Virus record (IMG/VR): IMGVR_UViG_2609459856_000007
Span: 1-64,000 of that record
DNA from: a virus
Taxonomy: Duplodnaviria > Heunggongvirae > Uroviricota > Caudoviricetes
Reading direction: 5' to 3' (one strand)
DNA: 64,000 nucleotides
The position numbers were made by a program, and so were the translations under genes. This document shows positions 10,482 to 38,687 of this stretch, one piece after another. The notes under the pieces are model-generated. The model was not told the origin of the DNA, did no database searches, and saw nothing but the letters and a program-made list of their open reading frames with translations. Each line of letters opens with the position of its first letter. The first letter of the stretch is position 1.

Positions 10482-10641
10482 TTTATGGTGTCATAAACTT
10501 AAATCTAGCGCCGGGTAGAACAAGTTAATCGAACGATGTAGCGGCCATTTAGGCGTTACAGAAAGAACAGAATTTTAAATTTATAGTGAAGCCGTTGCAG
10601 CAACTTTGTGGGGTGCAACCAACACTGAACAGGAAAAGAAA

Positions 10642-13065
10642 ATGGATCATAGTGTACATAACAAGCTCATCTCATTTATTTGGAACATTGCCGACGACTG
10701 TTTACGTGATGTGTACGTTCGCGGTAAGTACCGCGATGTGATTTTACCTATGGTGGTATTACGACGTTTAGATACGTTACTTGAACCCACCAAAGAAGCC
10801 GTGCTTGAAGAGGTCAAGTTCCAAAAAGAAGAGATGCAAGCCACGGAGCTTGATGATGAACCATTGAAGGCGGCTAGTGGTTATGTTTTTTACAATACAT
10901 CTAAATGGACCCTGAAATCCCTGTTCAACACCGCAACGAATAACCAACAGATATTACTCGCCAACTTTGAAGAGTACCTGCTTGGCTTTAGCGATAATGT
11001 TAAAGAAATCATTGAATGCTTTAACCTCAAGTCGCAAATTCGTCACATGGCCTCAAAGCAAGTCCTTCTTGATGTCGTCGAAAAGTTTGTTTCCCCTTAC
11101 ATCAACTTAACTCATGAAACGGTCGAAGACCCAGATGGCAACAAGATGCCAGCCCTTACTAACCTGGGTATGGGGTACGTGTTCGAAGAGTTGATCCGTA
11201 AGTTCAACGAGGAGAATAACGAAGAAGCCGGTGAGCACTTTACACCTAGGGAAGTGATTGAGCTGATGACACACTTGGTTTTTGACCCAGTGAAAGAGCA
11301 GCTACCATTGACCATGACCGTTTACGACCCTGCGTGTGGTAGCGGTGGTATGCTCACTGAATCTCAAAACTTCATTGAAGAGAAATACCCGAACGACAGC
11401 CGAGATATTTACCTTTACGGCAAAGAGATCAATGACGAGACCTACGCGATTTGTAAATCGGACATGATGATCAAAGGTAACAACCCTGAGAACATCAAGG
11501 TAGGCTCAACCTTGTCTACCGACGAGTTTGCGGCTTCACGCTTTGACTTTATGTTGTCTACCCCGCCATACGGTAAGAGTTGGGCGTCTGAACAGAAGTA
11601 CATTAAAGACGGCAGTGATGTGATTGACCCGCGTTTTAAGGTTAGCCTGAAAGACTATTGGGGAAATCTCGAAGTGGTGGATGCCACGCCACGTTCGAGT
11701 GATGGCCAGCTGCTTTTCTTAATGGAGATGGTCAACAAGATGAAAGATCCGAGCGTAAGTCCATTAGGCAGCCGGATTGCCTCTGTTCATAACGGCTCAT
11801 CGCTCTTTACCGGTGATGCGGGCGGTGGCGAAAGTAATATTCGTCGCTTCATCATTGAAAACGACATGCTAGATGCCATCGTTCAGTTACCTAATAACCT
11901 GTTCTATAACACTGGCATTACCACTTACATTTGGGTGTTGAGCAACAATAAACCTGAGGCGCGTAAAGGTAAGGTGCAATTAATTGATGCCAGCTTGCTC
12001 TACCGTAAGTTGCGCAAGAACTTAGGTAACAAAAACTGCGAATTTGCGCCTGAGCACATCACGGAAATTACCGATACTTACCTCGCGTGTAAGGATGTTG
12101 AAAGAGCACTGGATGCAAACAATGATCCTGTTGGCATCGCCAGTAAGGTATTCAGCAATGACGATTTTGGCTACTACAAAGTCACTATCGAGCGCCCAGA
12201 TCGCCGCAAAGCCAAGTTTACTCAAGATGCCATAGCCCCACTGCGTTTTGATAAGCAACTTAGTGAAGTGATGGAGTACGTGTACGCAGAGCACGGCGAA
12301 CGTGTTTACGAAAAAACTGGCTACGGGTCAGATCAGAAAAAGAGCTTCTTAAAATCCATCGAGAAAGACATTCTTTCTTGGTGTGAAGATAACGACATCA
12401 GTCTCAATGCTAAGGCTAAGGCCAAACTGCTTGATGTGAAACACTGGCTGGCGCTAAAAGCATTGCTTGAAACTGCACAAACGCTGATGGCTGACATCGG
12501 TAGCATTGAATTTGATGACTTCAATAGCTTTAAAACCCAAGTTGATAAATCGCTAAAAGCCCATGCTATTAAGCTTTCAGCACCTGAGAAAAATGCCATT
12601 CTTCACGCGGTGAGCTGGTATGACGAAACCGCCAAGAAAGTGGTTAAAAAGGTAGTTAAATTAACGGGTGATAAATTAAACGACCTGCTGGAGCGCTATG
12701 AGTGTGAAGTCGCTGACTTGCCAGATTTTGGTTATTACCCCGTTCCTTCAGCAGAAGGCGGTAAAAAAGGCGAGTATATCACTTACGAGACCAATTCAGA
12801 CCTGCGAGATACAGAATCTGTTCCATTAAAGCAAAGCATTTACCAGTACTTCCTAGATGAAGTGAAGCCTCATGTCGATGAAGCATGGATAAACCTAGAT
12901 ACGGTAAAAATTGGCTATGAAATCAGCTTCAATAAGTATTTCTACCGTCATAAACCGCTGCGTAGTTTAGAAGAGGTCGCAACCGACATCATCAACCTAG
13001 AACAAAAAGCCGAAGGTTTGATTGCGCAGATTCTTGGTGCGGAAGTAAAAAAGGTTCAGGGGTAA
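10642..13065 (+). CDS. hsdM: Type I restriction-modification methyltransferase subunit HsdM (long form with C-terminal extension)
   Basis: N6-adenine methyltransferase motifs (DPACGSGGM, STPPYG); track ORF starts at 10606 but ATG at 10642 with upstream GGAAAAG is the likelier start. Confidence 0.85.
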   Translation: MDHSVHNKLISFIWNIADDCLRDVYVRGKYRDVILPMVVLRRLDTLLEPTKEAVLEEVKFQKEEMQATELDDEPLKAASGYVFYNTSKWTLKSLFNTATNNQQILLANFEEYLLGFSDNVKEIIECFNLKSQIRHMASKQVLLDVVEKFVSPYINLTHETVEDPDGNKMPALTNLGMGYVFEELIRKFNEENNEEAGEHFTPREVIELMTHLVFDPVKEQLPLTMTVYDPACGSGGMLTESQNFIEEKYPNDSRDIYLYGKEINDETYAICKSDMMIKGNNPENIKVGSTLSTDEFAASRFDFMLSTPPYGKSWASEQKYIKDGSDVIDPRFKVSLKDYWGNLEVVDATPRSSDGQLLFLMEMVNKMKDPSVSPLGSRIASVHNGSSLFTGDAGGGESNIRRFIIENDMLDAIVQLPNNLFYNTGITTYIWVLSNNKPEARKGKVQLIDASLLYRKLRKNLGNKNCEFAPEHITEITDTYLACKDVERALDANNDPVGIASKVFSNDDFGYYKVTIERPDRRKAKFTQDAIAPLRFDKQLSEVMEYVYAEHGERVYEKTGYGSDQKKSFLKSIEKDILSWCEDNDISLNAKAKAKLLDVKHWLALKALLETAQTLMADIGSIEFDDFNSFKTQVDKSLKAHAIKLSAPEKNAILHAVSWYDETAKKVVKKVVKLTGDKLNDLLERYECEVADLPDFGYYPVPSAEGGKKGEYITYETNSDLRDTESVPLKQSIYQYFLDEVKPHVDEAWINLDTVKIGYEISFNKYFYRHKPLRSLEEVATDIINLEQKAEGLIAQILGAEVKKVQG

Positions 13066-13071
13066 GTCGTT

Positions 13072-14346
13072 ATGATGAAGATTTCTGAAATGCCGAAATA
13101 TGAGGTTTATAAGGATTCAGGTGTTGAATGGCTAGGGGATATTCCTGCGTCTTGGAGCTTATTAGCTAATAAGCACATCTTTCGCTTGAAGAAAAAACAG
13201 GTTGGAAAACGCTCAAGCGAATATGATTTGCTATCGCTTACTCTCAGAGGTGTGATTAAGCGTGATATGGAAAACCCAGAGGGTAAGTTCCCAGCAGAGT
13301 TCGATACTTATCAAGAAGTGCAGTGTGGAGATTTCATTTTCTGCTTGTTCGACGTGGAAGAAACACCCAGAACTGTTGGGTTGTCGCCATTTAATGGGAT
13401 GATTACTGGTGCATATACCGTTTTTGAACTAAATGACAATTTTGATAATAGGTTTTTATACTATTTTTATATGAACCTTGATGCAAAAAAGATGCTTAAA
13501 CCGCTTTATCGTGGCCTGAGAAATACAATTCCTAAAGATTCATTTCTGAGTTTTAAGACGTTTGTTCCTCCCCATGAGCAACAAACCCGTATCGCCAACT
13601 TCCTAGACAAGAAAATCGCTCTAATCGACGAAGCGATTTCGATCAAAGAAAAGCAAATTAATCTGTTAAAAGAACGTAAGCAGATCATCATCCAACAGGC
13701 GGTGACCCAAGGGCTTGATCCCAATGTGCCAATGAAAGACTCCGGTGTGGATTGGATTGGTAAGATTCCAGCGCATTGGAACTTAATGTCATTGAGATAT
13801 GCGTTTGAGTTTCTTAACAGTAGAAGAGTTCCAATAAGCGCAGTTGAGAGAGAGTCGAGACAGGGCGTATATCCGTATTACGGAGCAAGTGGTGTTATCG
13901 ATTATGTTGATGACTACATCTTTGATGAAGATTTAATCTTGATCGCTGAAGATGGCGCGAATTTGCTAAGCAAGTCAACACCATTGGCTTTTGTTGCAAC
14001 TGGAAAGTATTGGGTGAATAACCATGCACATATTATTAAGCCAAAATTTCATGGTTTTAAATACTGGGCCGAATTATTAAGCGGATTGGACTATACGGTA
14101 TATATTTCTGGTGCGGCACAGCCAAAATTAACAAGGGATCGTCTTGCAAGTGTATTGGTTCCAGTGCCACCAAAAGATGAAATTCAAGAAATAATTTCGT
14201 TCATTGAAGGAATTGAGCCAGATCTGAATCGCACGATTGATATCCAAAAGTCGCAGATTGAAAAGCTTAAAGAATACAAAACCACCCTGATCAACAGCGC
14301 CGTGACAGGAAAAATAAAAATCACCCCAGAAATGGTTGAGCAATAG
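13072..14346 (+). CDS. hsdS: Type I R-M specificity subunit HsdS
   Basis: 424-aa ORF between hsdM and hsdR with two-TRD-like repeated architecture and a conserved central coiled region. Confidence 0.8.
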   Translation: MMKISEMPKYEVYKDSGVEWLGDIPASWSLLANKHIFRLKKKQVGKRSSEYDLLSLTLRGVIKRDMENPEGKFPAEFDTYQEVQCGDFIFCLFDVEETPRTVGLSPFNGMITGAYTVFELNDNFDNRFLYYFYMNLDAKKMLKPLYRGLRNTIPKDSFLSFKTFVPPHEQQTRIANFLDKKIALIDEAISIKEKQINLLKERKQIIIQQAVTQGLDPNVPMKDSGVDWIGKIPAHWNLMSLRYAFEFLNSRRVPISAVERESRQGVYPYYGASGVIDYVDDYIFDEDLILIAEDGANLLSKSTPLAFVATGKYWVNNHAHIIKPKFHGFKYWAELLSGLDYTVYISGAAQPKLTRDRLASVLVPVPPKDEIQEIISFIEGIEPDLNRTIDIQKSQIEKLKEYKTTLINSAVTGKIKITPEMVEQ

Positions 14347-14355
14347 GACGCGAAT

Positions 14356-15519
14356 ATGTTCACGGTAAATCATCAAACTAACAGGATTAGTCCTGTTAGG
14401 ACAAAGAAGTTCAGTGAGTTGGGCTTTACTGAGCGCAAGCATCTTCAGGAGTGGTTGGCACACGAACCTTCCGCATTGGGTGAAGAGTTGTTGATTATTC
14501 AAAAAGAGTTCGATGGCTTTGATGACACCCGTGAACGATTAGATTTACTGGCACTGGATAAAGATGGCAACTTGGTCATTATTGAAAATAAGCTGGACGA
14601 CAGTGGCCGAGATGTGGTGTGGCAGGCCCTTAAATATGCCTCTTACTGTGCCAGTTTAACCAAAGCACAAATAGTTGACATTTACCAGCAGTACTGAGAT
14701 CGCTATGAGCCTGTAACAGCAGAGGTTGACCTGTTAAATGCCCCTGCAAGTGCTTCGGCGAGAATATGTGAATTTTTGGATGCGCCCGATCTGGATGAGT
14801 TAAAGCTCAACCTGGGTAACAGCCAGCGCATTATGCTAGTTGCGGCGAACTTTCGCAAAGAAGTAACCAGCACAGCGCTGTGGTTATTGGGTCAAGGCAT
14901 TAGCATTGCCTGCTTCAAAATCACTCCTTATTCACTGGGTGAACAGCTACTGATTAATATTGACCAGATCATCCCAACGCCAGAAGCGAAAGAGTTGATG
15001 ATCGGCATTAATGCCAAGGAAGCGGAAGAAAAAACCACCGAAGTGGTACTAAAAAACCGCCATACGGTGCGTCGCGAGTACTGGGAGCGTGCCTTAGAGG
15101 CGTTTCAGAAAAGCGCTTGCCAACTCTATAACAATATTAGCCCAAGCAAAGATCATTGGTTATCAGCAGGCTCAGGGTTAAGTGGGTGTCCGTATAACCT
15201 GATATTTCTGCAAAAAGAGCTTCGAGTAGAGCTTTGGATCAGCCGTGGGGTTACCGAAGAGAATAAATACCTTTTTGACTTGTTGAGTCAGTCCAAACAG
15301 GACATTGAACATGCTTTTGGTGCAGAACTTGAGTGGATGAGGCTGGATGAGAAGAAATCTTGCCGTATTCAGTTTTCGACCAAAGCTGATGGGTTTAATA
15401 AAGAGACGTGGCCCCAAGCGGTTGCGTGGCACTTAGAGCAGATGACAAAGTTAGAAAAAGCCTTGAAAGGACCGCTGCAAAAAGCGGCTGAGGCAATGAA
15501 ACAGAAGAATTTTGATTAA
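14356..15519 (+). pseudogene. PD-(D/E)xK nuclease-like protein (DUF4268-like) embedded between hsdS and hsdR, interrupted by an in-frame TGA at 14695-14697
   Basis: Track ORFs 14356-14697 and 14776-15519 are in the same frame and separated only by one TGA; N-terminal motif DLLALD...IIENK. Confidence 0.6.
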
Positions 15520-15533
15520 GGGAATTTACAATT

Positions 15534-19252
<3,719 letters not shown>

Positions 19253-28676: not shown

Positions 28677-30236
28677 TTACTCTCTATTTAAAACAGTGAA
28701 ATCGAATGTGCTGCCAACCGGCAAGACCCCCTCGGCAAACCCAGGCGTCGTGTCGATAATGTGTTTCCGCTCATATGAATGCGACATGAGGTATTTGTTG
28801 CTCACGTCGATGAAGTCGGTAATAAAGCACACGTTAGCCTGATTCTTTTTGGCTCGAAGACCGCGACCCACACGTTGACGCATCTCCACTTCGGCTTTGC
28901 CGCCACCACCCAGAATCACCGCGCCTACGCTTGGAACGTCGACACCAACATCCAGAATGGTTGAACCAATGAGAACATCTATCTTGCCTGCCGCCAGACT
29001 ATTAAGTTTTGCTTGTCGGGTAGTCTGGTTTGATTCTCCGTAGATGAAATCGACCTTGAGGCCACTCTCTTTCATCATTTCCATCAAGATCTGACCATGA
29101 CGCTTCAGACGAACCAATGTCATACAGTTCAGACCGTGACTCTTGTACATTAGCGCTTCACGCACAATAGCTTCGTTGCGGCCCAGATTATAGACGATGC
29201 CTAACTGATAGGCTTTCTGGTAAGCCGTGCTCATTCCAACCCGAAAATTCAGGTGTTTTGAAGCAAGTTCGGCTCTAATCCGCGCCTCATCTGGAGTGTA
29301 CGCGATTTTATGATATAAAAAGTATGGTTTCGCTAAAATACCTCTGTCGATCAAATATTTCTCCGTTACTTTTATCTCGATGCGACCCGCAACGGCCATG
29401 AGACGCATATTTGCTTCAGTCGAGTCCTTCATGAACGGCGTTGCTGTCAGCGCCAGACGGTAGTCGGCATTGATGCACAACCGGGCGATGTCGTAGAAGT
29501 TAGAACCAGATGATTCGTGTGCCTCTTCCAGAATCAGCAGAGAAACGCTGGACAGGAAGCGTTTAACCAGTTCCCGGCGCTTCAGGTGGTACTGTTTTTT
29601 CTCCGGTGATGCGTCGCGCGGTGGCTCTTCGAGAAAACTGGCCAGGGTCTGCACCGTGGCAACGTTGATATGGCGCGAGACCTGGAACTCACCCGATCCA
29701 ATCACCCCAACTCTCTGACCTTTCAGCCACGGCTCGCCATTCTCCGCGCGGTAGTCGATGGATTTCTGGAAGTTCTCTGCCATCTGGAACATCAGAACCG
29801 ATCGCGTGGTTAAAAACAGCGTCATACGACCAATGCGAGCAGCAGCCTTACACGCTACGTTCGATTTACCGCCACCCGTCGCAATCTGGGCAATCATCAT
29901 CCCTTCGCGCACCAGTGTTTCCACTGTCTGATCCTGATACGCGTAGTCCGGGTTATACGGGAATGGGTTAACCACCGGATTCGGCTTACCCAGCGCGGGA
30001 GCTTTTTCCTTGCGAACATGCACGCATTTGATGCCAGCTTTCAGAAGATTGGTCGCAACTGGCTTCGCAAACCCAGCCGGGAACGCGTTTTTACTCCAGT
30101 TGAACATCGTGCTGGTCCCTTTCCAGTCACCAGCCTCCACTTCATAGCTCAACATCTCCTGAACAAGCCGTTTCACGTTGTCATCAGCGCCAGAAATCAG
30201 CGCATTGACTGCATTTGATACAATCCGAACAGTCAT
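28677..30236 (-). CDS. SF2 DEAD/DEAH-box family helicase
   Basis: Motifs GGGKS (Walker A), LEEAHE (DEAH-like), TATP, QRVGRGLR. Confidence 0.8.
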   Translation of the reverse strand: MTVRIVSNAVNALISGADDNVKRLVQEMLSYEVEAGDWKGTSTMFNWSKNAFPAGFAKPVATNLLKAGIKCVHVRKEKAPALGKPNPVVNPFPYNPDYAYQDQTVETLVREGMMIAQIATGGGKSNVACKAAARIGRMTLFLTTRSVLMFQMAENFQKSIDYRAENGEPWLKGQRVGVIGSGEFQVSRHINVATVQTLASFLEEPPRDASPEKKQYHLKRRELVKRFLSSVSLLILEEAHESSGSNFYDIARLCINADYRLALTATPFMKDSTEANMRLMAVAGRIEIKVTEKYLIDRGILAKPYFLYHKIAYTPDEARIRAELASKHLNFRVGMSTAYQKAYQLGIVYNLGRNEAIVREALMYKSHGLNCMTLVRLKRHGQILMEMMKESGLKVDFIYGESNQTTRQAKLNSLAAGKIDVLIGSTILDVGVDVPSVGAVILGGGGKAEVEMRQRVGRGLRAKKNQANVCFITDFIDVSNKYLMSHSYERKHIIDTTPGFAEGVLPVGSTFDFTVLNRE

Positions 30237-30300
30237 AAACCTCTTTCCTTCGTGCCTTTTGTATGGTAATTGGCTATTATGTTAAGTAAGTGCTTACACA

Positions 30301-30999
30301 ATGTATTGTATCAAAAATATGGATGTGAAAATTACGATTCTACAGGTGGAAGTCGCGAACCTGCGTCCGAACCCCTGGAATACCAACTCCGTTGGGGCGC
30401 AAAACTTCGAAAAACTGAAAGGTTCCATCGAAAAGTTGGGCTTTTTTAAGCCAATTCTGGCGCGAGAGCTGGACGGCGGCATTTTTGAGATTCTCGGTGG
30501 CGAACATCGCTGGCGTGCCGCGATGGAGCAGGGCATTTCAACGGTTCCCGTCATCTCCGTGGGCAAAATTAACGACCTGGTGGCCAAACAGATGTCCCTC
30601 GTCGACAACGAGCGCTACGGCGAAGACGATCAGGTCGCTTTGCAGCGCTTAATCGAAGAAATCCAGTCTGAAATCGACTACCGGTTGTCCGATATCGCCC
30701 CGTATGACGACGAAATGGCGGCAACACTCGCCAAAGCGTCCGTTATCGATCTTGAAGCGCTGGAAGCGCTCTCCCGTGGCGATGACGAGCCGGTCGATGA
30801 GGACAAACGCGAGAAAACCGAGCGAGTCGGCGCTGAACACCAGACGATGCGCTTCAAGGTGACGTTTGATGCGTCAGATCGGGTCGCCGACACCATCAAA
30901 ACCATCATCAAAGAGCAGGGAATCAATACCGGTAACGAAATGGAGAACGCCGGGGAAGCCCTGGTGTGGCTGGTCGACTACTACAAGGAGCGTATGTAA
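30301..30999 (+). CDS. ParB-like nuclease (ParB/Srx N-terminal) domain protein with acidic C-terminal region
   Basis: ParB-box-like LGGEHRWRAA; 232 aa. Confidence 0.65.
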   Translation: MYCIKNMDVKITILQVEVANLRPNPWNTNSVGAQNFEKLKGSIEKLGFFKPILARELDGGIFEILGGEHRWRAAMEQGISTVPVISVGKINDLVAKQMSLVDNERYGEDDQVALQRLIEEIQSEIDYRLSDIAPYDDEMAATLAKASVIDLEALEALSRGDDEPVDEDKREKTERVGAEHQTMRFKVTFDASDRVADTIKTIIKEQGINTGNEMENAGEALVWLVDYYKERM

Positions 31000-31667
31000 T
31001 GACCAAAAACTTTGAAATCGTCTATCGAAACCCGGCAGAACTCATCCCGTATGAGATGAACGCCAAAAAACATGACGAACAGCAGATCCGCGATCTGGCG
31101 GCCGCCATCAAAAAGCGCGGTTTTGACCAGCCGATCACGGTCGACAAGCACGACGTCATCATTACTGGCCACGGTCGTCGCGAGGCGGCTCTTCTGGCTG
31201 GTCTGGAGCGTGTGCCGGTCATTGTTCGCGACGATCTGAGCGAAGAAGAAGTGAAGGCTAAGCGTCTGGAAGACAACCGCCTGGCCAGTATTGACTACGA
31301 CGCCATCAAATTGCAGCAGGAACTGGAATCCCTGGTGCTGGGCGACGTCGAGGTCTTCGGTTTTGAAGAGCGCGAGCTGAACGTGCTTGTCGGCAGCATG
31401 ACCGAAGAGATGGAAACCGGCTCTCTGGTGCTCGATCTGGGCGAAGAGACGGAGCGCCAGAAGGAAGAGCACACCGAGATCAGTCGCGAAGTGGCCTCTG
31501 AAGAAGTCCGCGTCATCGACGTATTGGGCTTTAAAACGCTCCCTGCTGGCTCTGCCATTGTGGTTGGGGATTTGCTTGCCCACATGGAAGAAATCACGGG
31601 AGAGAGCGGGGTAGACGCTTTCGTGGCGTATGCGGAGAAAGTTTCTTCTGGTGAGCTGGCCGCATGA
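30999..31667 (+). CDS. ParB-like domain protein, paralogous to the preceding gene
   Basis: ITGHGRREAA motif; ATG at 30999 with AAGGAG ribosome-binding site overlapping the upstream stop. Confidence 0.65.
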   Translation: MTKNFEIVYRNPAELIPYEMNAKKHDEQQIRDLAAAIKKRGFDQPITVDKHDVIITGHGRREAALLAGLERVPVIVRDDLSEEEVKAKRLEDNRLASIDYDAIKLQQELESLVLGDVEVFGFEERELNVLVGSMTEEMETGSLVLDLGEETERQKEEHTEISREVASEEVRVIDVLGFKTLPAGSAIVVGDLLAHMEEITGESGVDAFVAYAEKVSSGELAA

Positions 31668-32302
31668 GCAAATACACCATCAACGTATCGTTTCAGACCC
31701 GCGTGAACAAAACCACGCGCACGCTGGAGATTGCCGAATCGTTCGGTCTTGGCCTGGACGAAAAAGAGTGGACGCTTTACGACAATCTGGAGCTGGAAGT
31801 GAAGCAGGGCGATGTGGTGTACATCACCGGCCAATCCGGTTCCGGTAAATCCGTTGTGCTGCGCGAGCTGCAACGCCAGATGAAGGATGAAGGGCTTTCT
31901 GTAGCCTCCATCGATGACTTTGCCTTCGACAATGAGGTTAACGTCATTGACCAGCTGGGCAAAACCACCAGCGAAGCGCTGGGGCTGCTGTCTATGGCCG
32001 GATTGAATGACGCCTATCTCTTTGTGCGTAAGCCATCCGAGATGTCTGACGGCCAGAAATACCGTCTCAAGATCGCCAAGCTGATCGAGTCCGGCGCGAA
32101 AGTCTGGGCTGCCGACGAATTTGGCGCTGTTCTCGACCGTGTAACCGCCCAGGTTGTGGCGTCGAACCTCCAGCGTGCCGCCCGTAAGGTTGGTGCGACG
32201 GTAATGGTGGCGACGACCCACGAAGACCTGAAGAACGCGCTGCGCCCGGATATGCAGATCACCAAGCACTACAAAGAACGCGTGAAGGTGGAATATGCCT
32301 GA
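31664..32302 (+). CDS. compact ABC-type ATPase (nucleotide-binding domain only)
   Basis: Walker A GQSGSGKS, signature-like SDGQKYR, Walker B VWAADEF, H-loop TTHED; 212 aa. Confidence 0.65.
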   Translation: MSKYTINVSFQTRVNKTTRTLEIAESFGLGLDEKEWTLYDNLELEVKQGDVVYITGQSGSGKSVVLRELQRQMKDEGLSVASIDDFAFDNEVNVIDQLGKTTSEALGLLSMAGLNDAYLFVRKPSEMSDGQKYRLKIAKLIESGAKVWAADEFGAVLDRVTAQVVASNLQRAARKVGATVMVATTHEDLKNALRPDMQITKHYKERVKVEYA

Positions 32303-32549
32303 TTTGAAGATCGTAGAGCTGAAGCCATCGAAAGAGGCTGACAACAACAACGTTGAAGTCATCCGCCTGCTGGAAGAAGCACTCCAGTACGCCAGAGAAG
32401 GCAAAAGCCAGAGCCTGGCACTGCTGATGATCAACAACGACGGCAGTGTGCTGGATTGCTGGCATAACGGTGGGCGTCCATACGTCATGGTTGGGGCGAT
32501 GGAATCGCTTCGCCTGGACTTCATCAATGCCAATATCGAGCGTAGGTGA
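32295..32549 (+). CDS. small hypothetical protein (84 aa)
   Basis: Overlapping starts/stops with both flanking genes. Confidence 0.45.
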   Translation: MPDLKIVELKPSKEADNNNVEVIRLLEEALQYAREGKSQSLALLMINNDGSVLDCWHNGGRPYVMVGAMESLRLDFINANIERR

Positions 32550-33472
32550 TCGACATGACAGGCATCATCATCAAACGCTACCGCCCGGAAGAGTTCCCGC
32601 GTCATCTGGACTTTCTGGAGCGTATGACCGTTACCAAAGGCACGGTTGAAGACTGGCACGCGCTGAAGTCGCTGCACTACAAGACGGATGGTAAGCCGTT
32701 TGCGCCAACGTATTATCGCTGCGAACTGGACGACCGGCTGGTGGGCGTCGTGGTTATGGCTTACCCGAAACTGCTGCTGGCGCCTCGCCATCGCATGTTT
32801 CCTAAGCTGAAGCCAACCACCAATACCACCGTGGCCAACCAGTATTGGGGGCGGTACGTGAACAACAACTTTGCGGTGATCAGCCGTTCCGTTGTGGACA
32901 CTCAGTACCGCGGTGTCGGCGTCTCCTATCGAATGATTAACCTGGTTAGCAGGATGCACGACCGGCCAATCATCGAGATCCAGTCGTCGATGAGCAAATA
33001 CAACCCGTTCGCCATGAAAGCAGGGTTCCAGTTCATCCGTCCGGAGCGTCCGAAGAGCTATGAGAGTGCGTTGCGTGTCTTCCAGCGTCATTTCCGTTCC
33101 GACCCTGGCGACAACGAAGCGATCGTCAAAGAGCTGTTTGCCATGAGTGAGTCTCGCCGTCGTCGTGCGCTGCGTGATCTGGTCGCTGACTACCACAAGA
33201 ACAGTTCCCTGGCCAAAGCCGGGCGTAATCGTGGCACGACGATTCAGGACATTGCCGACAGCCTGGTGGACGAGGCCAGCATCGTGAAGCTGCTCAAGGA
33301 CATTCACAACCTGAGCTTCACGTCTCCGCTGTATGGCGTGTACCGAAACCCGGACTTTGGTCGTCAGCTGCCGGACACGCTGCCACTGCTGGCATTCGAC
33401 AAACAGCCTTTGAATAACCCTCTTGAAATTGCATTATCCGAAGAAGCCCCCGCCGATCGCAGACCGTGTTAA
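32546..33472 (+). CDS. GNAT-fold acetyltransferase-like N-terminal domain protein with uncharacterised C-terminal domain
   Basis: GNAT motif-A/B-like QYRGVGVSYRM and NPFAMKAGFQFI; 308 aa. Confidence 0.5.
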   Translation: MIDMTGIIIKRYRPEEFPRHLDFLERMTVTKGTVEDWHALKSLHYKTDGKPFAPTYYRCELDDRLVGVVVMAYPKLLLAPRHRMFPKLKPTTNTTVANQYWGRYVNNNFAVISRSVVDTQYRGVGVSYRMINLVSRMHDRPIIEIQSSMSKYNPFAMKAGFQFIRPERPKSYESALRVFQRHFRSDPGDNEAIVKELFAMSESRRRRALRDLVADYHKNSSLAKAGRNRGTTIQDIADSLVDEASIVKLLKDIHNLSFTSPLYGVYRNPDFGRQLPDTLPLLAFDKQPLNNPLEIALSEEAPADRRPC

Positions 33473-33695
33473 CGCAGTGAACCGCATGTTGATGAGTGCC
33501 TCGGGCGAAACCCGGTTGTACATCGATCCGAAGTGCAAACACCTCATCGACTCGCTGGAGAAGGTGATCTACAAGCCAGGCTCACGCGATATGGATAAGA
33601 CTGGCGGCATCGAACACAGTGCGGATGCGTTAGGTTATCCGGTTCATCGTAGGTATCCGGTGAAAAATCGTGTTATTCTTGGTGGATCTAGATAG
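33414..33695 (+). pseudogene. terminase large subunit, C-terminal ~70-aa remnant
   Basis: RLYIDPKCKHLIDSLEKVIY...DKTGGIEHSADALGY is typical of a TerL nuclease-domain C-terminus; only about 93 codons are open upstream-to-stop in this frame. Confidence 0.55.
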
Positions 33696-33728
33696 GTAAG
33701 TACTTACCTAATAGGAAAAGAAAATCAA

Positions 33729-35303
33729 ATGGAATTGACTGACAAGCAAATCAAAGACCTTGTGGCACGACGCCACCCAGAATATGAGAAGAAAAAAGAA
33801 CATTGGGACTTCCTCGCCAGCACCTACGCTGGCGGGCGTGCCTGGTTCAACGACAATATCTTCCGTTACTTCAAAGAGGGCGATCAGGAGTTCAAAGAGC
33901 GCCTGGAACGCGCTTATCGCTTCAACCATACGCGCGAAGTGGTAAACCTCATCAACAAATACCTCTTCAAAGAGGTCATTCACCGCAACACTGATGAAGC
34001 ACCGGAGCAGATCCGCAATTTCTGGAAGCGAGCCACGCGCCAGAACGCCTCCATCGATGCGTTTATGGCGGCTATCGATCTGCAATCATCCATTTATGGC
34101 CGTATCTGGGTTGTCGTGGATAGCACGATGAACGTCGATGTTGAGTCTGTTGCAGACGAGAAGAAAAATGATGCGCGTGCCTACGCTTACTGGATTTCGC
34201 CGCAGCAGCTGCTTGATGTTGCCTGGGATGAAGACGGCAATATGTTGTGGGCGCTGATTGTTGAAATCGCGCGCGACGACGAAGATCCGTTCACTTCAAC
34301 CGGGCAGGAATACCAGCGTTACCGTCTGTGGACGCAAAACGAGTGGTATCTGTTCCGTGAAGAAGTGAAGAAGGGTTCCGGAAATAGCGGTCGCCGTCAG
34401 GCCAAAGTCGTTCTGGAGGATAGCGGCCAGCATAATCTGGGCGTGGTGCCGGTGTTCCCGGTGGATTGCATTGGTGAAAGCGAGTCTCCGTATTTTAGCC
34501 CGTCGTTGATTGACGATATTGCCTATCTTGATCGCGCCGTGGCCAACTACCTGTCGAACCTTGACGCGATTATTCAGGATCAGACATTCAGCCAGTTAGC
34601 GATTCCGGTTCAGTCCCTGCTGCCGGGCGATGAAAACCACACCAAAGTGCTCGAAATGGGGACAAAACGTGTCTTCACCTTCGATTCTGAGAGCGGTAAT
34701 CAGCCATTCTATCTGTCTCCAGACCCGAAACAGGCTCAGATGATCATCACCACGATTAAGACGGTGATTAATGAGATCTACCATTCCGTTGGTGTGGCTG
34801 GTGAGCGAACCAAGCAGGATAACGCGCAGGGTATCGACAACTCTTCGGGGGCAGCGAAGATGTACGACTTCCAACGTATTAACAGTCTGTTGGTGACAAA
34901 AGCAGAGCGCCTCGAAAGGGCAGAACGCCAAATGATGGAGTTGGCTGCGAAATGGATGGGCATCGAATTGGATGAAGACCACTCTCTGATCGCTTACCCG
35001 GAGAGTTTCGATATTCGTGGTCTGACTGACGAATTTGCCGTCGCTGAGAAATTGTCGCTGTTACAGGCGCCTGATTCTGTACGTCGTCATCAGATGGAAA
35101 TGCTCATAGAAAAGATCTTCCCGAATATTTCCGAAGCGATGCAAAAGGAATTTAAAAAAGATCTCTTGAAATTTCCTCTAAAAAATGCTCCTGGCGCCCT
35201 TGAAAATAAGTCAGTACTTACTTATGATCGAGATACAGTCCAAGAAAGCGGACAAGATCAACCCCGAGGGAATGGGGACTCATCTACTCAAGAGACCGAG
35301 TGA
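33729..35303 (+). CDS. phage portal protein
   Basis: 524-aa ORF immediately after the terminase remnant and before scaffold/capsid genes. Confidence 0.65.
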   Translation: MELTDKQIKDLVARRHPEYEKKKEHWDFLASTYAGGRAWFNDNIFRYFKEGDQEFKERLERAYRFNHTREVVNLINKYLFKEVIHRNTDEAPEQIRNFWKRATRQNASIDAFMAAIDLQSSIYGRIWVVVDSTMNVDVESVADEKKNDARAYAYWISPQQLLDVAWDEDGNMLWALIVEIARDDEDPFTSTGQEYQRYRLWTQNEWYLFREEVKKGSGNSGRRQAKVVLEDSGQHNLGVVPVFPVDCIGESESPYFSPSLIDDIAYLDRAVANYLSNLDAIIQDQTFSQLAIPVQSLLPGDENHTKVLEMGTKRVFTFDSESGNQPFYLSPDPKQAQMIITTIKTVINEIYHSVGVAGERTKQDNAQGIDNSSGAAKMYDFQRINSLLVTKAERLERAERQMMELAAKWMGIELDEDHSLIAYPESFDIRGLTDEFAVAEKLSLLQAPDSVRRHQMEMLIEKIFPNISEAMQKEFKKDLLKFPLKNAPGALENKSVLTYDRDTVQESGQDQPRGNGDSSTQETE

Positions 35304-35325
35304 TAAGTAACGAAAAGGTATTTCT

Positions 35326-36222
35326 ATGAATCTGTGGCAAATGCTTATGGCCCGTCGTGGCCTGATGGATGTAGCCGAAGCGCATGAGCGCGGCGGCGCT
35401 GGTGGCGGTGCTCCTGCTGGAGACAATGAGCAGAGCATTCAAGACCCAGGCAAACAGGGCGAGCAAAAAGAGCAACCGAAGGGTGACGACGATGAGTATG
35501 CCGGTATGACTCAGGAAGAGTTGCTGGCAGAACTGCGTAAGTCTAAGAAAGCCGGTGCTGATCTGTTGAAAGAGAACATGAAGCGCAAGGAGAAAGAGCG
35601 CACATTGGCCGATCAGCTGGCTCAGTACGGTGATATTGACCCGACGCGTGCTCGTCAGCTTCTCGAAGCTGAACAAGCCGCAGAAACCGCACGTCGGGAG
35701 GCGGAGCAGGCTGAACTGGAACGTCGTGGTGAGTTCGATGCTGTGAAAAAGCAGATGATCGAAGCACACCAGACTGAACTGGCACAGCGCGACGAACGCT
35801 ACTCCGCTCTGGAGAGCGAGAACGCCGCACTGAAGGCTCAACTGGTCGAAATGACTGTTGGTGTTTCCTTCAGCAGTTCTGCTTTCCTGCGTGACAAAGT
35901 TCTGATGACTCCGGCTAAGGCACGCGTTATCTACGGCTCTCATTTCGAAGTGGGTGAAGACGGTAGTGTTGTGGGCTTTGATAAGCCAGCCGGTCAGAAA
36001 GAACGTGCAGTTCTGGTTGACGGTGAAGGCAAGCCGTTACCGTTCGAATCCGCGATTGAGCGCATTCTGCGTGCAGATCCGGAAGCTGACGCACTGTTGC
36101 GTAGCGAAGCCAAGCAGGGTGCTGGTTCCAATAGCAAACCGACCCACAAAGTAAGCCAGCCGAAGAGCAAGTCGACTATGGATAAGTTGACCTCCGGTCT
36201 GGGAAAAATCGGACTCAAGTAA
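35326..36222 (+). CDS. phage scaffolding protein
   Basis: 298-aa charged, coiled-coil-rich ORF between portal and capsid genes. Confidence 0.6.
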   Translation: MNLWQMLMARRGLMDVAEAHERGGAGGGAPAGDNEQSIQDPGKQGEQKEQPKGDDDEYAGMTQEELLAELRKSKKAGADLLKENMKRKEKERTLADQLAQYGDIDPTRARQLLEAEQAAETARREAEQAELERRGEFDAVKKQMIEAHQTELAQRDERYSALESENAALKAQLVEMTVGVSFSSSAFLRDKVLMTPAKARVIYGSHFEVGEDGSVVGFDKPAGQKERAVLVDGEGKPLPFESAIERILRADPEADALLRSEAKQGAGSNSKPTHKVSQPKSKSTMDKLTSGLGKIGLK

Positions 36223-37198: not shown

Positions 37199-37525
37199 AT
37201 GCCAGAACAAAAGATGAAAATCATGGAGGAGACGTTTGCGGATTTCACAGGGCATATGTGCCGTGCCGGATTCACCAACTCCGTCTCCAACGAGCCTCTG
37301 AGCGAGCGCCAGCAGAACCATCTTGCGGCTTGCTTCCGGACAGTTCCGTTCACGCAGTCTGTCAGCGTGGAGTCTGTTGCTCTGACTCCTGATTCTGTCT
37401 CTGTTGAGAAGGGGAAGTCAGTCAAATTGCGAGTTGATGTGCAACCGTCAAACGCAACCAATCAAAAAGTCACCTGGACTTCTCAAAATAGCGACAAAGC
37501 GACCGTGGATCAGAACGGTATCTGA
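37199..37525 (+). CDS. Big_2 (bacterial Ig-like) domain protein, apparently truncated
   Basis: VKLRVDVQPSNATNQKVTWTSQNSDKATVDQNG matches the first half of a Big_2 domain; ends abruptly. Confidence 0.45.
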   Translation: MPEQKMKIMEETFADFTGHMCRAGFTNSVSNEPLSERQQNHLAACFRTVPFTQSVSVESVALTPDSVSVEKGKSVKLRVDVQPSNATNQKVTWTSQNSDKATVDQNGI

Positions 37526-38687
37526 AGAAAAAAACGCCCGAGCAACTGCCGACGAATCTTTGGCACAACAGATAACTACATTGAAGAGTCAAACGGGCAA
37601 GGATATTAAGGCGGCTGTAGCTGAAGAGACGAAAGCCAGAACTGATGCTGATTCCGCTTTGGCTTCTAATATCACTAATCTACAGGCTCAAACGAGCAAA
37701 GATATTCATGCTGCGATTACATCTGAAGCGACTGCGCGTACAAGCGCCGACAATGCACTAAGTGGGAGAGTTGACACCTTAAAAGCATCAGTAGATGGAA
37801 ATACAGCAACAATTCAACAACAGGCCACAGCTATTGCTGATACGAACAAGAAGGTATCAACAGCCTGGACGCTGAAAATGGAAACCTCCACCAGCGGAGG
37901 CCAAAAATATGTTGCCGGCATAGCGTTGGGCATCGACACAACAGGTCTATCGCAGTTTTTGGTGCAGGCAGATCGCTTTGGTTTGGTGAACTCCGTTAAT
38001 GGGAAAATTACAACGCCATTCGTTATTGATGCCGGTGTGGCTTATATGAACGGAGCTTATATCAAGAACGGCACCATTGATAACGCCAAAATAGGCAACT
38101 TCATTCAGTCCAACGATTACTCAAGCGGGATGACGGGGTGGCATATTAATAAAAACGGGAACTCAGAGTTTAACAATGTAACTGTTAGAGGCACCGTTTA
38201 CGCAACGAATGGCAAATTCACAGGAGAAATACAGGCTACCAGCGGAACATTCAGAGGCACGGTACAAGCAGATCACTTCGTAGGCGATGTCGCTAACATG
38301 TATGTGGGCAATGACTTCTCAGTTCGTTACAACGGCACATATACAATGACATATACAGACTCTTCTTCGTCTGCATTGCCCAAAAATATTTATGTGGCAA
38401 TAAATGTATATACGGGGGGCGTCGGCCCTGTTGCAGCCCAATTTACCTGCAATGGAGTGACGAAGACCGCAACCACTGGTAAGGGGACAACATACAGAGA
38501 CCCTGATCTTAATTCAACAAGATCTACAGGCGTCGGTGGCACTCTTTACGCTGCTTTTAACAATGTTACCTCAAGAACTGTTGCTGTTACGGTAAAAGTG
38601 ACCAGTTCATCACAGACACATATTTATTCGCCCGTGATGCTAATCAGCCGTGGAAGTGGCGCATTTTCCATGTCGGGCATCAGTTAA
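37526..38687 (+). pseudogene. tail fibre protein segment lacking its own start codon (5'-truncated or frameshifted)
   Basis: Track ORF 37404-38687; fibre-like repeats (TDADSALASNITNLQAQTSKDIHAAITSEATARTSADNAL); no in-frame ATG until about 37878; A7 tract at the junction. Confidence 0.5.

What the first reader, a model, noticed from the sequence alone, without database searches (positions are those of the whole stretch)
30301..33695. Candidate undescribed five-gene module: two ParB-like proteins, a compact ABC ATPase, a small protein and a GNAT-domain protein, sitting where the terminase genes should be
Five tightly coupled genes (overlapping stops and starts) encode two paralogous ParB/Srx-fold proteins with acidic tails, a 212-aa stand-alone ABC-type nucleotide-binding domain (Walker A, signature-like SDGQKYR, Walker B, H-loop), an 84-aa protein and a 308-aa protein with a GNAT-like N-terminal domain. 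The operon ends by overlapping a roughly 70-aa remnant of a terminase large-subunit C-terminus directly upstream of portal, scaffold and capsid genes. I do not recognise this combination as any described partition, packaging, DNA-modification or defence system. It may be an unusual packaging/initiation module or an inserted accessory system that replaced the terminase.
Basis: partly seen in the sequence, partly recalled or inferred. Interest (0 to 1): 0.75.

Follow-up and report, generated by a model that had tools for sequence, protein, structure and literature searches.

The report
ParB/ABC-GNAT phage cassette beside deleted terminase
The five genes are real, but they are a standard conserved block of SSU5-type phage-plasmids that normally sits just upstream of intact terminase genes; this copy has simply lost those genes through a private 2.1-kb deletion, and the block's function has only been predicted, never tested.

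Summary
Five tightly coupled genes at 30301-33472 encode two ParB/Srx-like proteins, a 212-aa ABC ATPase, an 84-aa protein and a GNAT-fold protein. An 87-codon terminase large subunit (TerL) C-terminal remnant follows, just before the portal gene.

The reading that the module replaced the terminase is wrong. The window is 98-99.7% identical to Salmonella phage SSU5 and E. coli plasmid NZ_CP032074. It lacks 2,123 bp that all comparable relatives keep. That stretch holds the last 2 codons of the GNAT gene, an 88-aa gene, a palindromic probable cos site, the small-terminase-like gene and the first 331 codons of TerL. A second gap of about 14.8 kb removes the tail genes, so this element is a defective phage-plasmid.

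The ABC and GNAT genes are a split version of a fused ABC-GNAT protein family (hhalign E 1.9e-69 and 6.6e-41). A ParB gene followed by ABC-GNAT, usually next to the terminase, recurs in unrelated phages of Streptococcus, Gordonia and Leptospira. The 84-aa gene is optional.

The ABC-GNAT enzyme was already predicted in the literature to acylate a DNA base. I found no experiment testing this. A packaging-linked, ParB-assisted DNA acyltransferase is my best inference, at moderate confidence.

The parts
28677..30236 (-). UvsW-like DEAD/DEAH helicase, the conserved divergently transcribed left neighbour of the cassette
   Evidence: Pfam DEAD/ResIII/Helicase_C. The same neighbour is found in Dyella and Hyphomonas prophages, Pseudomonas phage nickie and Rhizobium phage RHph_N1_15.
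30301..30999 (+). ParB/Srx-like protein 1 (232 aa, pI 4.6)
   Evidence: ParB_N E 9.2e-14. phrog_723 E 3.4e-86 over its full length. Aligns to T. thermophilus Spo0J 1vz0 residues 23-172. The GGEHRWRAA motif is readable. The region after the N-domain is acidic, pI 4.05.
30999..31667 (+). ParB/Srx-like protein 2 (222 aa from the ATG; alternative GTG start at 30966), pI 4.55
   Evidence: ParB_N E 1e-8. phrog_930 E 4e-115. Second-best matches include the N-terminal ParB part of ParB-methyltransferase fusions, phrog_498 at 7.7e-33, and PADLOC MTase_II at 6.5e-18. 27% identical to protein 1.
31664..32302 (+). Stand-alone ABC-type ATPase (212 aa). It corresponds to the N-terminal half of fused ABC-GNAT proteins.
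   Evidence: ABC_tran E 4.9e-13. hhalign against the fused family A2, columns 8-214: E 1.9e-69, 48% identity. No permease gene is adjacent.
32295..32549 (+). 84-aa variable accessory gene (phrog_796). It is not part of the conserved core.
   Evidence: phrog_796 E 1.2e-46. No Pfam, NCBIfam or PADLOC hit. Detected in 38 of 80 close IMG/VR relatives. Absent from the Dyella prophage and replaced by other small genes in nickie and the Rhizobium phages.
32555..33472 (+). GNAT-fold acyltransferase-like protein (pI 9.8). Native length is 296 aa. Here it is 294 native residues plus 11 foreign residues read out of frame from terL DNA.
   Evidence: phrog_886 E 3.8e-165. AF2 model pLDDT 87.8. Foldseek top PDB hits are NAT10, TmcA, polyamine N-acetyltransferases, Mu Mom and RimI at E about 1e-4. 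R119-G-x-G122 is invariant. hhalign of A1 against fused family columns 208-467: E 6.6e-41. The C-terminal change is shown.
33433..33440 (.). Junction of a private 2,123-bp deletion (4-bp microhomology ATTA). It removed the GNAT stop codon, the 88-aa winged-helix-like gene, the palindromic probable cos site, the terS-like gene and codons 1-331 of terL.
   Evidence: blastn against NZ_CP032074: window 30001-33440 = L001 1301-4739, and window 33433-36000 = L001 6855-9422. Junction sequences. The junction is contiguous in 0 of 436 plasmid records and 0 of 237 E. coli genomes. Every IMG/VR locus whose DNA reaches the portal has at least 2,333 bp between the GNAT gene and the portal gene, against 293 bp here.
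33433..33695 (+). Remnant of the terminase large subunit: the last 87 codons of the nuclease domain C-terminus, with no ATPase domain
   Evidence: Collinear, 99.5% DNA identity with the 3' end of terL of NZ_CP032074. phrog_10250 'terminase large subunit' E 6.4e-21, profile positions 143-225 of 228.
33729..35303 (+). Portal protein, the first intact head gene after the deletion
   Evidence: phrog_145 portal E 5.1e-140. Syntenic with the relatives.

Best explanation
**Shown.**
- The window carries an SSU5-type phage-plasmid.
- The block is the SSU5-supergroup form of a widespread phage cassette. A ParB/Srx-domain protein (here two paralogues) is followed by an ABC-ATPase/GNAT enzyme. Here that enzyme is split into a 212-aa ATPase gene and a 296-aa GNAT gene, with an optional 84-aa gene between them.
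- In intact relatives the cassette lies directly upstream of a palindromic probable cos site, a small-terminase-like gene, terL and the portal gene.
- In this window a private 2,123-bp deletion removed cos, terS and most of terL. A second gap of about 14.8 kb removed the tail genes. The element can no longer make or enter virions, and the cassette only appears to occupy the terminase position.

**Inferred mechanism.**
- The basic GNAT subunit is an acyl-CoA-dependent or similar acyltransferase. Its substrate is phage DNA, or something bound to it.
- The ABC ATPase dimer supplies ATP-driven substrate engagement, much as the ATPase module of TmcA/NAT10 supports RNA acetylation.
- The two acidic ParB/Srx NTPase-fold proteins act as obligatory partners or regulators. 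They would load or time the enzyme on replicated DNA around packaging, as ParB partners do for phage thymidine dioxygenases and for DpdA/DpdB.
- The likely pay-off is an acylated base that protects virion DNA from host nucleases or marks DNA for packaging.
For: **Deletion and synteny**
-.

**The split genes are the two halves of one enzyme**
- Many 450-550-aa homologues carry ABC and GNAT in one chain.
- hhalign gives E 1.9e-69 for the ABC half and 6.6e-41 for the GNAT half.
- The fused model has pTM 0.79.

**Fusions and contexts that point to DNA**
- A ParB-ABC-GNAT fusion at L170 7011-9011.
- A family-B DNA polymerase-ABC-GNAT fusion on at least 24 contigs, inside a replication module.
- A C-terminal TFIIB repeat on one homologue and an intein in the ABC domain of another.
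- A replication-module context in L094.

**Recurrent neighbourhood: ParB_N, then ABC-GNAT, then 0-3 small genes, then TerL and portal**
- SSU5-like elements, Dyella and Hyphomonas prophages, Pseudomonas phage nickie and Rhizobium phages.
- S. pyogenes phiNIH1.1, Gordonia BiggityBass and Leptospira LE3. ParB followed by ABC-GNAT also occurs in Arthrobacter EastWest.
- In one metagenomic phage clade, TerL lies immediately upstream of the fused gene in roughly half of 80 loci.

**Fold and chemistry**
- GNAT fold with a conserved acyl-CoA loop. The top PDB neighbours include the nucleic-acid acetyltransferases NAT10 and TmcA and the DNA modifier Mom.
- GNAT pI is 9.8, against 4.6 for the ParB-like proteins.
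- ParB-like 2 most resembles the ParB domain of ParB-methyltransferase fusions.

**Literature**
- ParB-dependent phage T-dioxygenases (10.1101/2025.08.14.668559; PMC13229309).
- Mom is a GNAT-fold enzyme that modifies DNA adenine (PMC13219725).

**Not partition**
- A true ParA/ParB pair lies at window 4081-6254.
- The cassette also occurs in phages not described as plasmids (nickie, Rhizobium phages and others).
Against: - No modification has been shown for any phage carrying the cassette, and no experimental paper was found in ten literature searches.
- The structural similarity to NAT10, TmcA and Mom is no stronger than to protein and polyamine acetyltransferases. All are E about 1e-4 and TM about 0.3, so the substrate class is undetermined.
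- The ABC domain resembles ordinary transporter nucleotide-binding domains rather than DNA-binding ABC proteins.
- The ParB-like proteins are acidic and show no recognisable basic helix-turn-helix, so direct DNA binding is unproven.
- Some fused homologues have neither a ParB nor a terminase gene nearby.
- Many of the 80 metagenomic loci belong to one clade and are not independent.
- Adjacency to the terminase could simply reflect a position at the genome end, where accessory genes tend to accumulate.
Confidence: 0.45

Rival explanations
1. Packaging-initiation accessory without DNA modification. The ParB/Srx proteins, as NTP-regulated nickases or clamps, together with the ABC ATPase help the terminase find, bend or process cos and concatemer DNA. 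The GNAT subunit acetylates a packaging protein (small terminase, TerL or portal) or is purely structural.
For: The cassette is adjacent to terS/terL or to TerL in at least five unrelated phage lineages. It abuts the probable cos palindrome in SSU5-like genomes. The fused gene is the last gene before a contig end in 32 of 80 metagenomic contigs, against about 5.5 expected. ParB-domain proteins have reported nicking and NTPase activities (PMC5512222). The acidic ParB tails and acidic TerS contrast with the basic GNAT, TerL and 88-aa proteins, which would suit protein-protein contacts.
Against: The fused enzyme also occurs inside replication modules and fused to a DNA polymerase, far from terminase genes. 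The conserved acyl-CoA loop argues for catalysis. These phages have a conventional TerS-like protein and TerL, and no packaging system is known to need such factors.
Confidence: 0.2
2. Host-takeover or counter-defence acetyltransferase acting on a protein or small molecule, for example an RNA polymerase subunit as with phiKMV Rac, ribosomal proteins, or polyamines. The ABC and ParB-like proteins would act as regulators.
For: Foldseek neighbours include agmatine, polyamine and spermine N-acetyltransferases, RimI and protein acetyltransferases at the same E-values as the nucleic-acid enzymes. Phage GNATs that modify host proteins are known (PMC7824862). The slots between the core genes accept small accessory genes such as a DUF2829 protein in Rhizobium phages.
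Against: It does not explain the repeated partnership and fusion with ParB, DNA polymerase B and TFIIB domains, or the conserved terminase and replication neighbourhoods. The cassette is a core, vertically conserved block, about 45% identical across Gamma- and Alphaproteobacteria with fixed synteny, rather than a mobile accessory gene.
Confidence: 0.12
3. Plasmid partition or segregation system of the phage-plasmid: ParB-type centromere binders with an unusual ABC-type motor.
For: Two ParB_N-domain proteins sit next to an ATPase on a low-copy plasmid prophage. Database names read 'ParB-like partition protein'.
Against: The window carries a canonical ParA (HTH_54 plus AAA_31) and ParB (PF08775) at 4081-6254. 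The ATPase is ABC-type, not a ParA/MinD Walker ATPase. The ParB-like proteins score far below the NCBIfam partition-protein cut-offs and lack a basic helix-turn-helix. The cassette is conserved in phages not described as plasmids.
Confidence: 0.03
4. A non-canonical or split terminase, or an inserted system that replaced the terminase. A further variant is an ABC transporter 'auxiliary metabolic gene', as the database labels suggest.
For: The position in this window is directly upstream of a TerL remnant and the portal gene. PHROG and GenBank labels read 'ABC transporter'.
Against: Relatives keep the same block plus an intact terS-like gene and terL. The breakpoints define a simple deletion relative to those relatives, with no inserted DNA. 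The ATPase has an ABC fold, not a terminase fold, and the second protein has a GNAT fold, not an RNase H-like nuclease fold. No permease or transmembrane partner is present.
Confidence: 0.01

Closest known systems
Salmonella phage SSU5 genes SSU5_125-129, and the same block in about 785 enterobacterial phage-plasmids (for example E. coli p.CT29-P1, NZ_CP032074)
   Same: Same five genes in the same order, 98-99.7% DNA identity, with the same divergent helicase neighbour and the same downstream portal, scaffold and capsid genes.
   Different: The window lacks the 2,123 bp carrying the 88-aa gene, the palindrome, the terS-like gene and 331 codons of terL. Its GNAT protein has an altered C-terminus. 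It also lacks about 14.8 kb of head-completion and tail genes.
Fused ABC-ATPase/GNAT proteins (COG2401-type, 'ABC-type ATPase fused to a predicted acetyltransferase domain'). Iyer et al. 2013/2021 predicted these to be DNA-base acyl-modification enzymes, for example in Tenacibaculum phage pT24.
   Same: Both halves are clearly homologous (E 1.9e-69 and 6.6e-41), with shared family motifs FGLG, SDGQKYR, ATTHxDL, HY and YRGxG. They occur in phages and are often next to ParB and terminase genes.
   Different: Here the enzyme is split into two genes separated by an optional small gene. The GNAT subunit has a longer C-terminal domain (residues 170-294). Two ParB paralogues accompany it rather than one or none. 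The function of the whole family is predicted only (PMC7824862).
ParB-partnered phage DNA-modifying enzymes: ParB-methyltransferase fusions, ParB-dependent 5-methylpyrimidine (T) dioxygenases, and DpdB with DpdA
   Same: A ParB/Srx-domain protein is encoded with, or fused to, an enzyme, and is frequently found near terminase genes. ParB-like 2 is most similar to the ParB domain of ParB-methyltransferases.
   Different: The catalytic partner here is an ABC-GNAT acyltransferase, not a methylase, dioxygenase or transglycosylase. Dependence on ParB is untested.
TmcA / NAT10 (ATP-dependent RNA cytidine N4-acetyltransferases) and phage Mu Mom (GNAT-fold DNA adenine modifier)
   Same: A GNAT catalytic fold. 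For TmcA/NAT10, also an ATPase module coupled to a GNAT that acts on a nucleic-acid base. All are among the top Foldseek hits.
   Different: The ATPase in TmcA/NAT10 is a RecD-like helicase module, not an ABC domain. Mom has no ATPase and uses charged tRNA (PMC13219725). Similarity is at fold level only, E about 1e-4 and 9-12% identity.
ParABS plasmid and chromosome partition systems
   Same: ParB N-terminal domain with a GxxRxxA-type motif. ParB-like 1 aligns to Spo0J.
   Different: No ParA partner within the cassette, no basic helix-turn-helix, acidic proteins, and presence in phages not described as plasmids. The element's real ParAB pair is elsewhere in the window.

Membership tests
SSU5-supergroup conserved cassette (PHROGs 723, 930, 293, 796, 886) | Each protein matches its PHROG family, over the full length of the profile for four of the five | tested here: met
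   E-values 3.4e-86, 4e-115, 1e-58, 1.2e-46 and 3.8e-165. Profile coverage is about complete for 723, 930, 796 and 886. The ABC protein covers positions 117-350 of the 1058-position phrog_293.
SSU5-supergroup conserved cassette (PHROGs 723, 930, 293, 796, 886) | Synteny: helicase (-) | ParB, ParB, ABC, (small), GNAT, 88-aa gene, terS-like, terL, portal | tested here: inconclusive
   The left part and the portal side are met. The 88-aa gene, terS-like gene and terL N-terminus are missing here because of the 2,123-bp deletion.
Fused ABC-ATPase/GNAT family (COG2401-type) | N-terminal ABC ATPase domain homologous to the family | tested here: met
   hhalign E 1.9e-69, 48% identity, 206 columns.
Fused ABC-ATPase/GNAT family (COG2401-type) | C-terminal GNAT-like domain homologous to the family | tested here: met
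   hhalign of A1 against A2: E 6.6e-41, columns 208-467.
Fused ABC-ATPase/GNAT family (COG2401-type) | Both domains in one polypeptide | tested here: not met
   Two separate genes (31664-32302 and 32555-33472) with an 84-aa gene between them. This is a split variant.
GNAT acyltransferase superfamily | GNAT alpha/beta fold | tested here: met
   AF2 model pLDDT 87.8. The 20 PDB matches with E at or below 0.001 are GNAT enzymes apart from one chain of an axonemal doublet-microtubule complex.
GNAT acyltransferase superfamily | Acyl-CoA pyrophosphate-binding loop (R/Q-x-x-G-x-G/A) | tested here: met
   R119-G-V-G122 is invariant in 44 homologues, and the same YRGxG motif occurs in the fused family.
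GNAT acyltransferase superfamily | Pfam GNAT model above the gathering threshold | tested here: not met
   Acetyltransf_10 scores 13.4 bits against a cut-off of 23.6.
GNAT acyltransferase superfamily | Acyl-transfer activity and identity of the acceptor | not testable with these tools
   Needs biochemistry.
Terminase large subunit (including a split form) | Terminase-type ATPase domain and RNase H-like nuclease domain | tested here: not met
   The 212-aa protein has an ABC fold and the 296-aa protein a GNAT fold. Only the 87-codon remnant at 33433-33695 is terminase-derived. Relatives have a separate intact TerL.
ParABS partition system | ParA/MinD-type Walker ATPase partner | tested here: not met
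   The adjacent ATPase is ABC-type. The genuine ParA is at 5043-6254.
ParABS partition system | ParB with N-terminal domain plus centromere-binding helix-turn-helix, scoring above family thresholds | tested here: not met
   Only the N-domain scores. TIGR00180 gives 39-47 bits against a cut-off of 58.45. The region after the N-domain has pI 4.05.
ParABS partition system | parS sites and CTP-dependent clamping | not tested
   No parS search was done. CTP binding needs experiment.
ABC transporter (database label) | Nucleotide-binding domain with Walker A, signature, Walker B and H-loop | tested here: met
ABC transporter (database label) | Associated permease or transmembrane subunit | tested here: not met
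   No membrane protein gene lies in or next to the cassette here or in five other lineages.
Known anti-phage defence systems (PADLOC 2.0) | Significant match of the components to a defence-system model set | tested here: not met
   Only generic ParB-methyltransferase N-domain and P-loop matches were found. There is no hit for the GNAT or the 84-aa protein.
ParB-partnered DNA-modification systems | ParB/Srx protein genetically coupled to the enzyme | tested here: met
   Conserved adjacency in at least five lineages and one ParB-ABC-GNAT fusion.
ParB-partnered DNA-modification systems | A modified base in phage DNA that depends on the enzyme | not testable with these tools
   No data were found in the literature searches.

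The most novel reading that the evidence does not exclude
The ParB + ABC-GNAT cassette is a packaging-coupled, ATP-dependent DNA acyltransferase system that installs a so-far unidentified acylated base in the virion DNA of SSU5-type phage-plasmids. The same would apply to many unrelated phages of Streptococcus, Gordonia and Leptospira. The ParB/Srx proteins would act as obligatory loaders or timers. This would be a new chemical class of phage DNA modification, present on clinically common enterobacterial plasmids.
Probability: 0.3. Interest if true: 0.75.

Novelty: new member of a known kind. Interest (0 to 1): 0.35.

Why it matters
For this window, the result is mainly a correction. The striking 'module in place of the terminase' is a deletion scar in a defective SSU5-like phage-plasmid. 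It has lost its probable cos site, terS, most of terL and its tail genes, so the element is now a plain plasmid that cannot form virions or be packaged. That matters for anyone typing phage-plasmids or judging whether they can transfer.

More broadly, the cassette itself is worth attention. It is a core block of a very common family of enterobacterial plasmid prophages (Klebsiella, E. coli, Salmonella, Yersinia pMT1-like). In simpler form it recurs next to terminase genes in phages of at least four bacterial phyla. Its enzyme has been predicted to acylate DNA bases, but I found no experimental test. SSU5, nickie, BiggityBass and LE3 are all cultured, so the prediction can be tested directly.

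Tried and rejected
- **Split or unusual terminase:** rejected on folds and on intact TerL in relatives.
- **Partition system:** rejected. A true ParAB pair lies elsewhere in the window, and the cassette occurs in phages not described as plasmids.
- **Defence system:** PADLOC gave only generic domain hits.
- **NCBIfam:** nothing for the GNAT, 84-aa, 88-aa or terS-like proteins.
- **PDB by sequence profile for the GNAT family:** no meaningful hit.
- **Foldseek of the fused ABC-GNAT model:** returned only transporter nucleotide-binding domains and no protein with the whole architecture.
- **Promoter and terminator scan of 29900-34000:** nothing above the shuffled expectation on the + strand.
- **Homologue search with the ABC protein:** swamped by near-identical sequences and uninformative.
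- **First IMG/VR scan with the GNAT alignment:** returned only close SSU5 relatives. It was useful only to show the deletion is private.
- **Literature:** 'COG2401' and 'predicted acetyltransferase domain' returned nothing. The SSU5, phage-plasmid and Nickievirus papers do not discuss these genes. The two key computational papers, Iyer 2013 (NAR gkt573) and Krishnan 2020 (PMC7544218), are not held. Their content is therefore cited only through PMC7824862.
- **Not attempted:** multimer modelling, because the tool folds single chains only.

Full report
**1. The observation**

- 30301-30999 (232 aa).
- 30966/30999-31667 (233 aa from a GTG, or 222 aa from the ATG that RefSeq uses in relatives).
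- 31664-32302 (212 aa).
- 32295-32549 (84 aa).
- 32546/32555-33472.

A short ORF at 33423-33695 follows, then the portal gene at 33729-35303.

The domain calls hold up:
- Pfam confirms ParB_N in the first two proteins (9.2e-14 and 1e-8) and ABC_tran in the third (4.9e-13). The GNAT call for the fifth is only sub-threshold.
- An AlphaFold model of the fifth protein, built on 44 homologues, is confident (pLDDT 87.8). Its PDB neighbours are GNAT enzymes. The R-G-x-G acyl-CoA loop is invariant.
- The two ParB-like proteins are 27% identical. Both are acidic (pI about 4.6), while the GNAT protein is basic (pI 9.8).
- The short ORF hits a terminase-large-subunit PHROG over its C-terminal 83 positions (6.4e-21).

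The description is therefore correct.

**2. What the locus really is**

The region is 98% identical to Salmonella phage SSU5. It matches 785 plasmid records, the best being E. coli p.CT29-P1 (NZ_CP032074) at 99.7%.

In every best hit, the 5.2-kb query spans about 7.3 kb of the record. Pairwise blastn gives the breakpoints: window 30001-33440 equals L001 1301-4739, and window 33433-36000 equals L001 6855-9422. The window therefore lacks 2,123 bp, with a 4-bp microhomology (ATTA) at the junction.

The missing DNA carries five things:
- The last two codons of a 296-aa GNAT-like protein.
- An 88-aa winged-helix-like gene.
- A 195-bp spacer containing a palindrome with 24-nt arms.
- A 213-aa small-terminase-like 'DNA-binding protein'.
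- Codons 1-331 of a 418-aa TerL.

The linear SSU5 record begins and ends inside that palindrome. Joining its ends reconstitutes the spacer at 193 of 195 positions. I therefore infer that the palindrome is the cos site.

The deletion is private:
- The junction is not contiguous in any of 436 plasmid records or 237 E. coli genomes that match it.
- Of 80 IMG/VR relatives, every one whose DNA reaches the portal has at least 2.3 kb between the GNAT gene and the portal gene. The window has 293 bp.

Whole-window comparison with the 108-kb relative shows two further gaps:
- About 14.8 kb at 37519/37520, covering head completion, tail tube, tape measure, tail tip and most of the central fibre.
- About 580 bp at 57532-57535.

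The element is a degraded phage-plasmid. The module did not replace the terminase.

**3. Anatomy and conservation of the cassette**

All five proteins belong to existing PHROG families.

One gene order recurs widely: helicase (-) | ParB, ParB, ABC, (small genes), GNAT, small gene, terS-like, terL, portal, scaffold, capsid. It is conserved at about 45% protein identity in prophages of Dyella and Hyphomonas, in Pseudomonas phage nickie and in Rhizobium phages. Among cultured phages, the full-length GNAT family occurs only in 31 records with genomes of about 84-122 kb.

The 84-aa gene was detected in 38 of 80 close relatives and is replaced by other small genes elsewhere. The conserved core is therefore four genes.

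**4. ABC and GNAT are one enzyme**

A profile search of 1.84 billion representative proteins found many 450-550-aa proteins with the GNAT-like region at residues of about 200-480. Pfam shows an ABC domain in front of it.

Profile-profile comparison makes this quantitative:
- The window ABC protein against the N-terminal half of the fused family: E 1.9e-69, 48% identity.
- The GNAT family against the C-terminal half: E 6.6e-41.

The fused protein folds as one unit (pTM 0.79), but it has no full-length structural analogue in the PDB.

Further fusions point to DNA:
- A ParB-ABC-GNAT protein (L170 7011-9011).
- A family-B DNA polymerase-ABC-GNAT protein found on at least 24 contigs, inside a replication module.
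- A C-terminal TFIIB repeat on one homologue, and an intein inside the ABC domain of another.

**5. Neighbourhoods outside the SSU5 lineage**

In 80 IMG/VR loci retrieved with the fused family:
- Roughly half have TerL immediately upstream of the fused gene.
- The fused gene is often the last gene before a contig end. In 32 of 80 contigs the end lies within 700 bp downstream, against about 5.5 expected. None end within 700 bp upstream.
- Many of these loci are one clade, so the counts are not independent.

Among cultured phages, the fused query hits 80 records. One arrangement recurs in three unrelated lineages: a ParB_N protein, then ABC(-GNAT), then 0-3 small genes, then TerL and portal.
- Streptococcus pyogenes phiNIH1.1, which also has an ASCH-domain gene.
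- Gordonia phage BiggityBass, genes 1-4.
- Leptospira phage LE3, gp16-21.

ParB_N followed by ABC-GNAT also occurs in Arthrobacter phage EastWest.

Counter-examples exist. Nonlabens P12024S and locus L094 carry the fused gene in replication modules, and one Porphyromonas prophage carries it at a prophage end.

**6. Mechanism**

The following points are shown:
- A split ABC-GNAT enzyme with a conserved cofactor loop.
- A recurrent genetic partnership with ParB/Srx proteins.
- Recurrent placement next to packaging or replication genes.
- No transporter partner.
- A separate, genuine ParAB system in the same window (4081-6254).

The following points come from the literature:
- ParB-like partners are required by a subclass of phage thymidine dioxygenases (10.1101/2025.08.14.668559; PMC13229309).
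- Mom is a GNAT-fold enzyme that modifies adenine in DNA (PMC13219725).

From my own knowledge, unverified here: P1 pac cleavage is controlled by Dam methylation, and ParB-methylase genes commonly sit beside terminase genes.

My inference is that the cassette is a ParB-assisted, ATP-dependent acyltransferase acting on phage DNA around the time of packaging (confidence about 0.45).

The main rival is a packaging accessory that does not modify DNA (0.2). A protein or polyamine acetyltransferase for host takeover comes next (0.12). Partition, split-terminase and transporter readings are essentially excluded.

The evidence cannot fix the substrate. Foldseek scores for nucleic-acid, protein and polyamine acetyltransferases are all about 1e-4. 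The acidic ParB-like proteins have no evident DNA-binding helix-turn-helix.

**7. Novelty and verdict**

- The window's copy is one more member, and a damaged one, of a block present in hundreds of sequenced plasmids and in SSU5 (2012).
- Its key enzyme has a published computational prediction, but I found no experimental characterisation in ten literature searches.
- What remains interesting is general rather than specific to this window: a widespread, testable, still uncharacterised ParB + ABC-GNAT cassette tied to phage DNA packaging and replication.
- Interest is 0.35. Novelty is 'new member of a known kind'.

Noticed in passing
window 37519-37520: A second private gap of about 14.8 kb relative to NZ_CP032074 (record 88703 joined to 103486, 2-bp microhomology). 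It removes the rest of the Ig-like head-decoration gene, the head-completion, tail tube, tape-measure and tail-tip genes, and most of the J-like fibre. ORF 37404-38687 is a fusion remnant. The junction is contiguous in 0 of 22 matching plasmid records.
   Followed up: partly
window 57532-57535: A third gap of about 580 bp (3-bp microhomology) inside the gene annotated 'porphyrin biosynthesis protein' in the relative.
   Followed up: no
window 33436 and 37520 (right-hand sides of the junctions): The right-hand sides of deletions 1 and 2 begin with similar sequences (TA|TCCGAAGAAG and TA|TCTGAAGAAA). This could be coincidence or a hint of a common mechanism.
   Followed up: no
L001 5040-5108 (absent from the window): A palindrome with 24-nt arms and a 21-nt loop lies in the 195-bp spacer between the 88-aa gene and the terS-like gene. 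The linear SSU5 GenBank record starts and ends at the edge of its loop, which suggests it is the cos site. It lies inside the window's deletion.
   Followed up: partly
window 4081-6254 (- strand): A genuine type Ia partition pair: ParA with an N-terminal HTH_54 domain (5043-6254) and a P1/F-type ParB (4081-5046, PF08775).
   Followed up: partly
window 10606-18551: A type I restriction-modification system (hsdM 10606-13065, hsdS 13072-14346, hsdR 15534-18551) with a DUF4268 gene (14776-15519) inserted between S and R. It lies in a region that does not match the closest relative, which carries a different type I system.
   Followed up: no
window 31295-33307 (- strand): A 670-aa antisense ORF runs across the ABC, 84-aa and GNAT genes. 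It is most likely a shadow ORF of this GC-rich (53-54%) coding region and has no support as a gene.
   Followed up: no
L095-L174 (IMG/VR loci with the fused ABC-GNAT gene): In 32 of 80 contigs the contig ends within 700 bp downstream of the fused gene (about 5.5 expected), and none end within 700 bp upstream. This suggests the gene sits at a physical genome end or just before a terminal repeat. Many of these loci are related.
   Followed up: partly
L177/L178 8001-11783 (protein P0324); protein P0288 in L011 7001-9544: A 1,260-aa family-B DNA polymerase-ABC-GNAT fusion recurs on at least 24 contigs within a phage replication module. Another homologue carries a LAGLIDADG intein inside the ABC domain.
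   Followed up: partly
L180 5613-5990 (phiNIH1.1 p26); L093 10558-10818: ASCH-domain genes lie directly downstream of the ABC(-GNAT) gene in two unrelated contexts. From my own knowledge, ASCH domains have been proposed as readers of modified bases, and E. coli YqfB hydrolyses N4-acetylcytidine. This is a possible functional link.
   Followed up: no
L009 5037-5339 (Rhizobium phage RHph_N1_15): A DUF2829 gene is inserted between the ABC and GNAT genes. From memory, this is the family that includes the Thoeris anti-defence protein Tad2. It shows that the gaps between the core genes act as landing sites for small accessory genes, like the 84-aa gene here.
   Followed up: no
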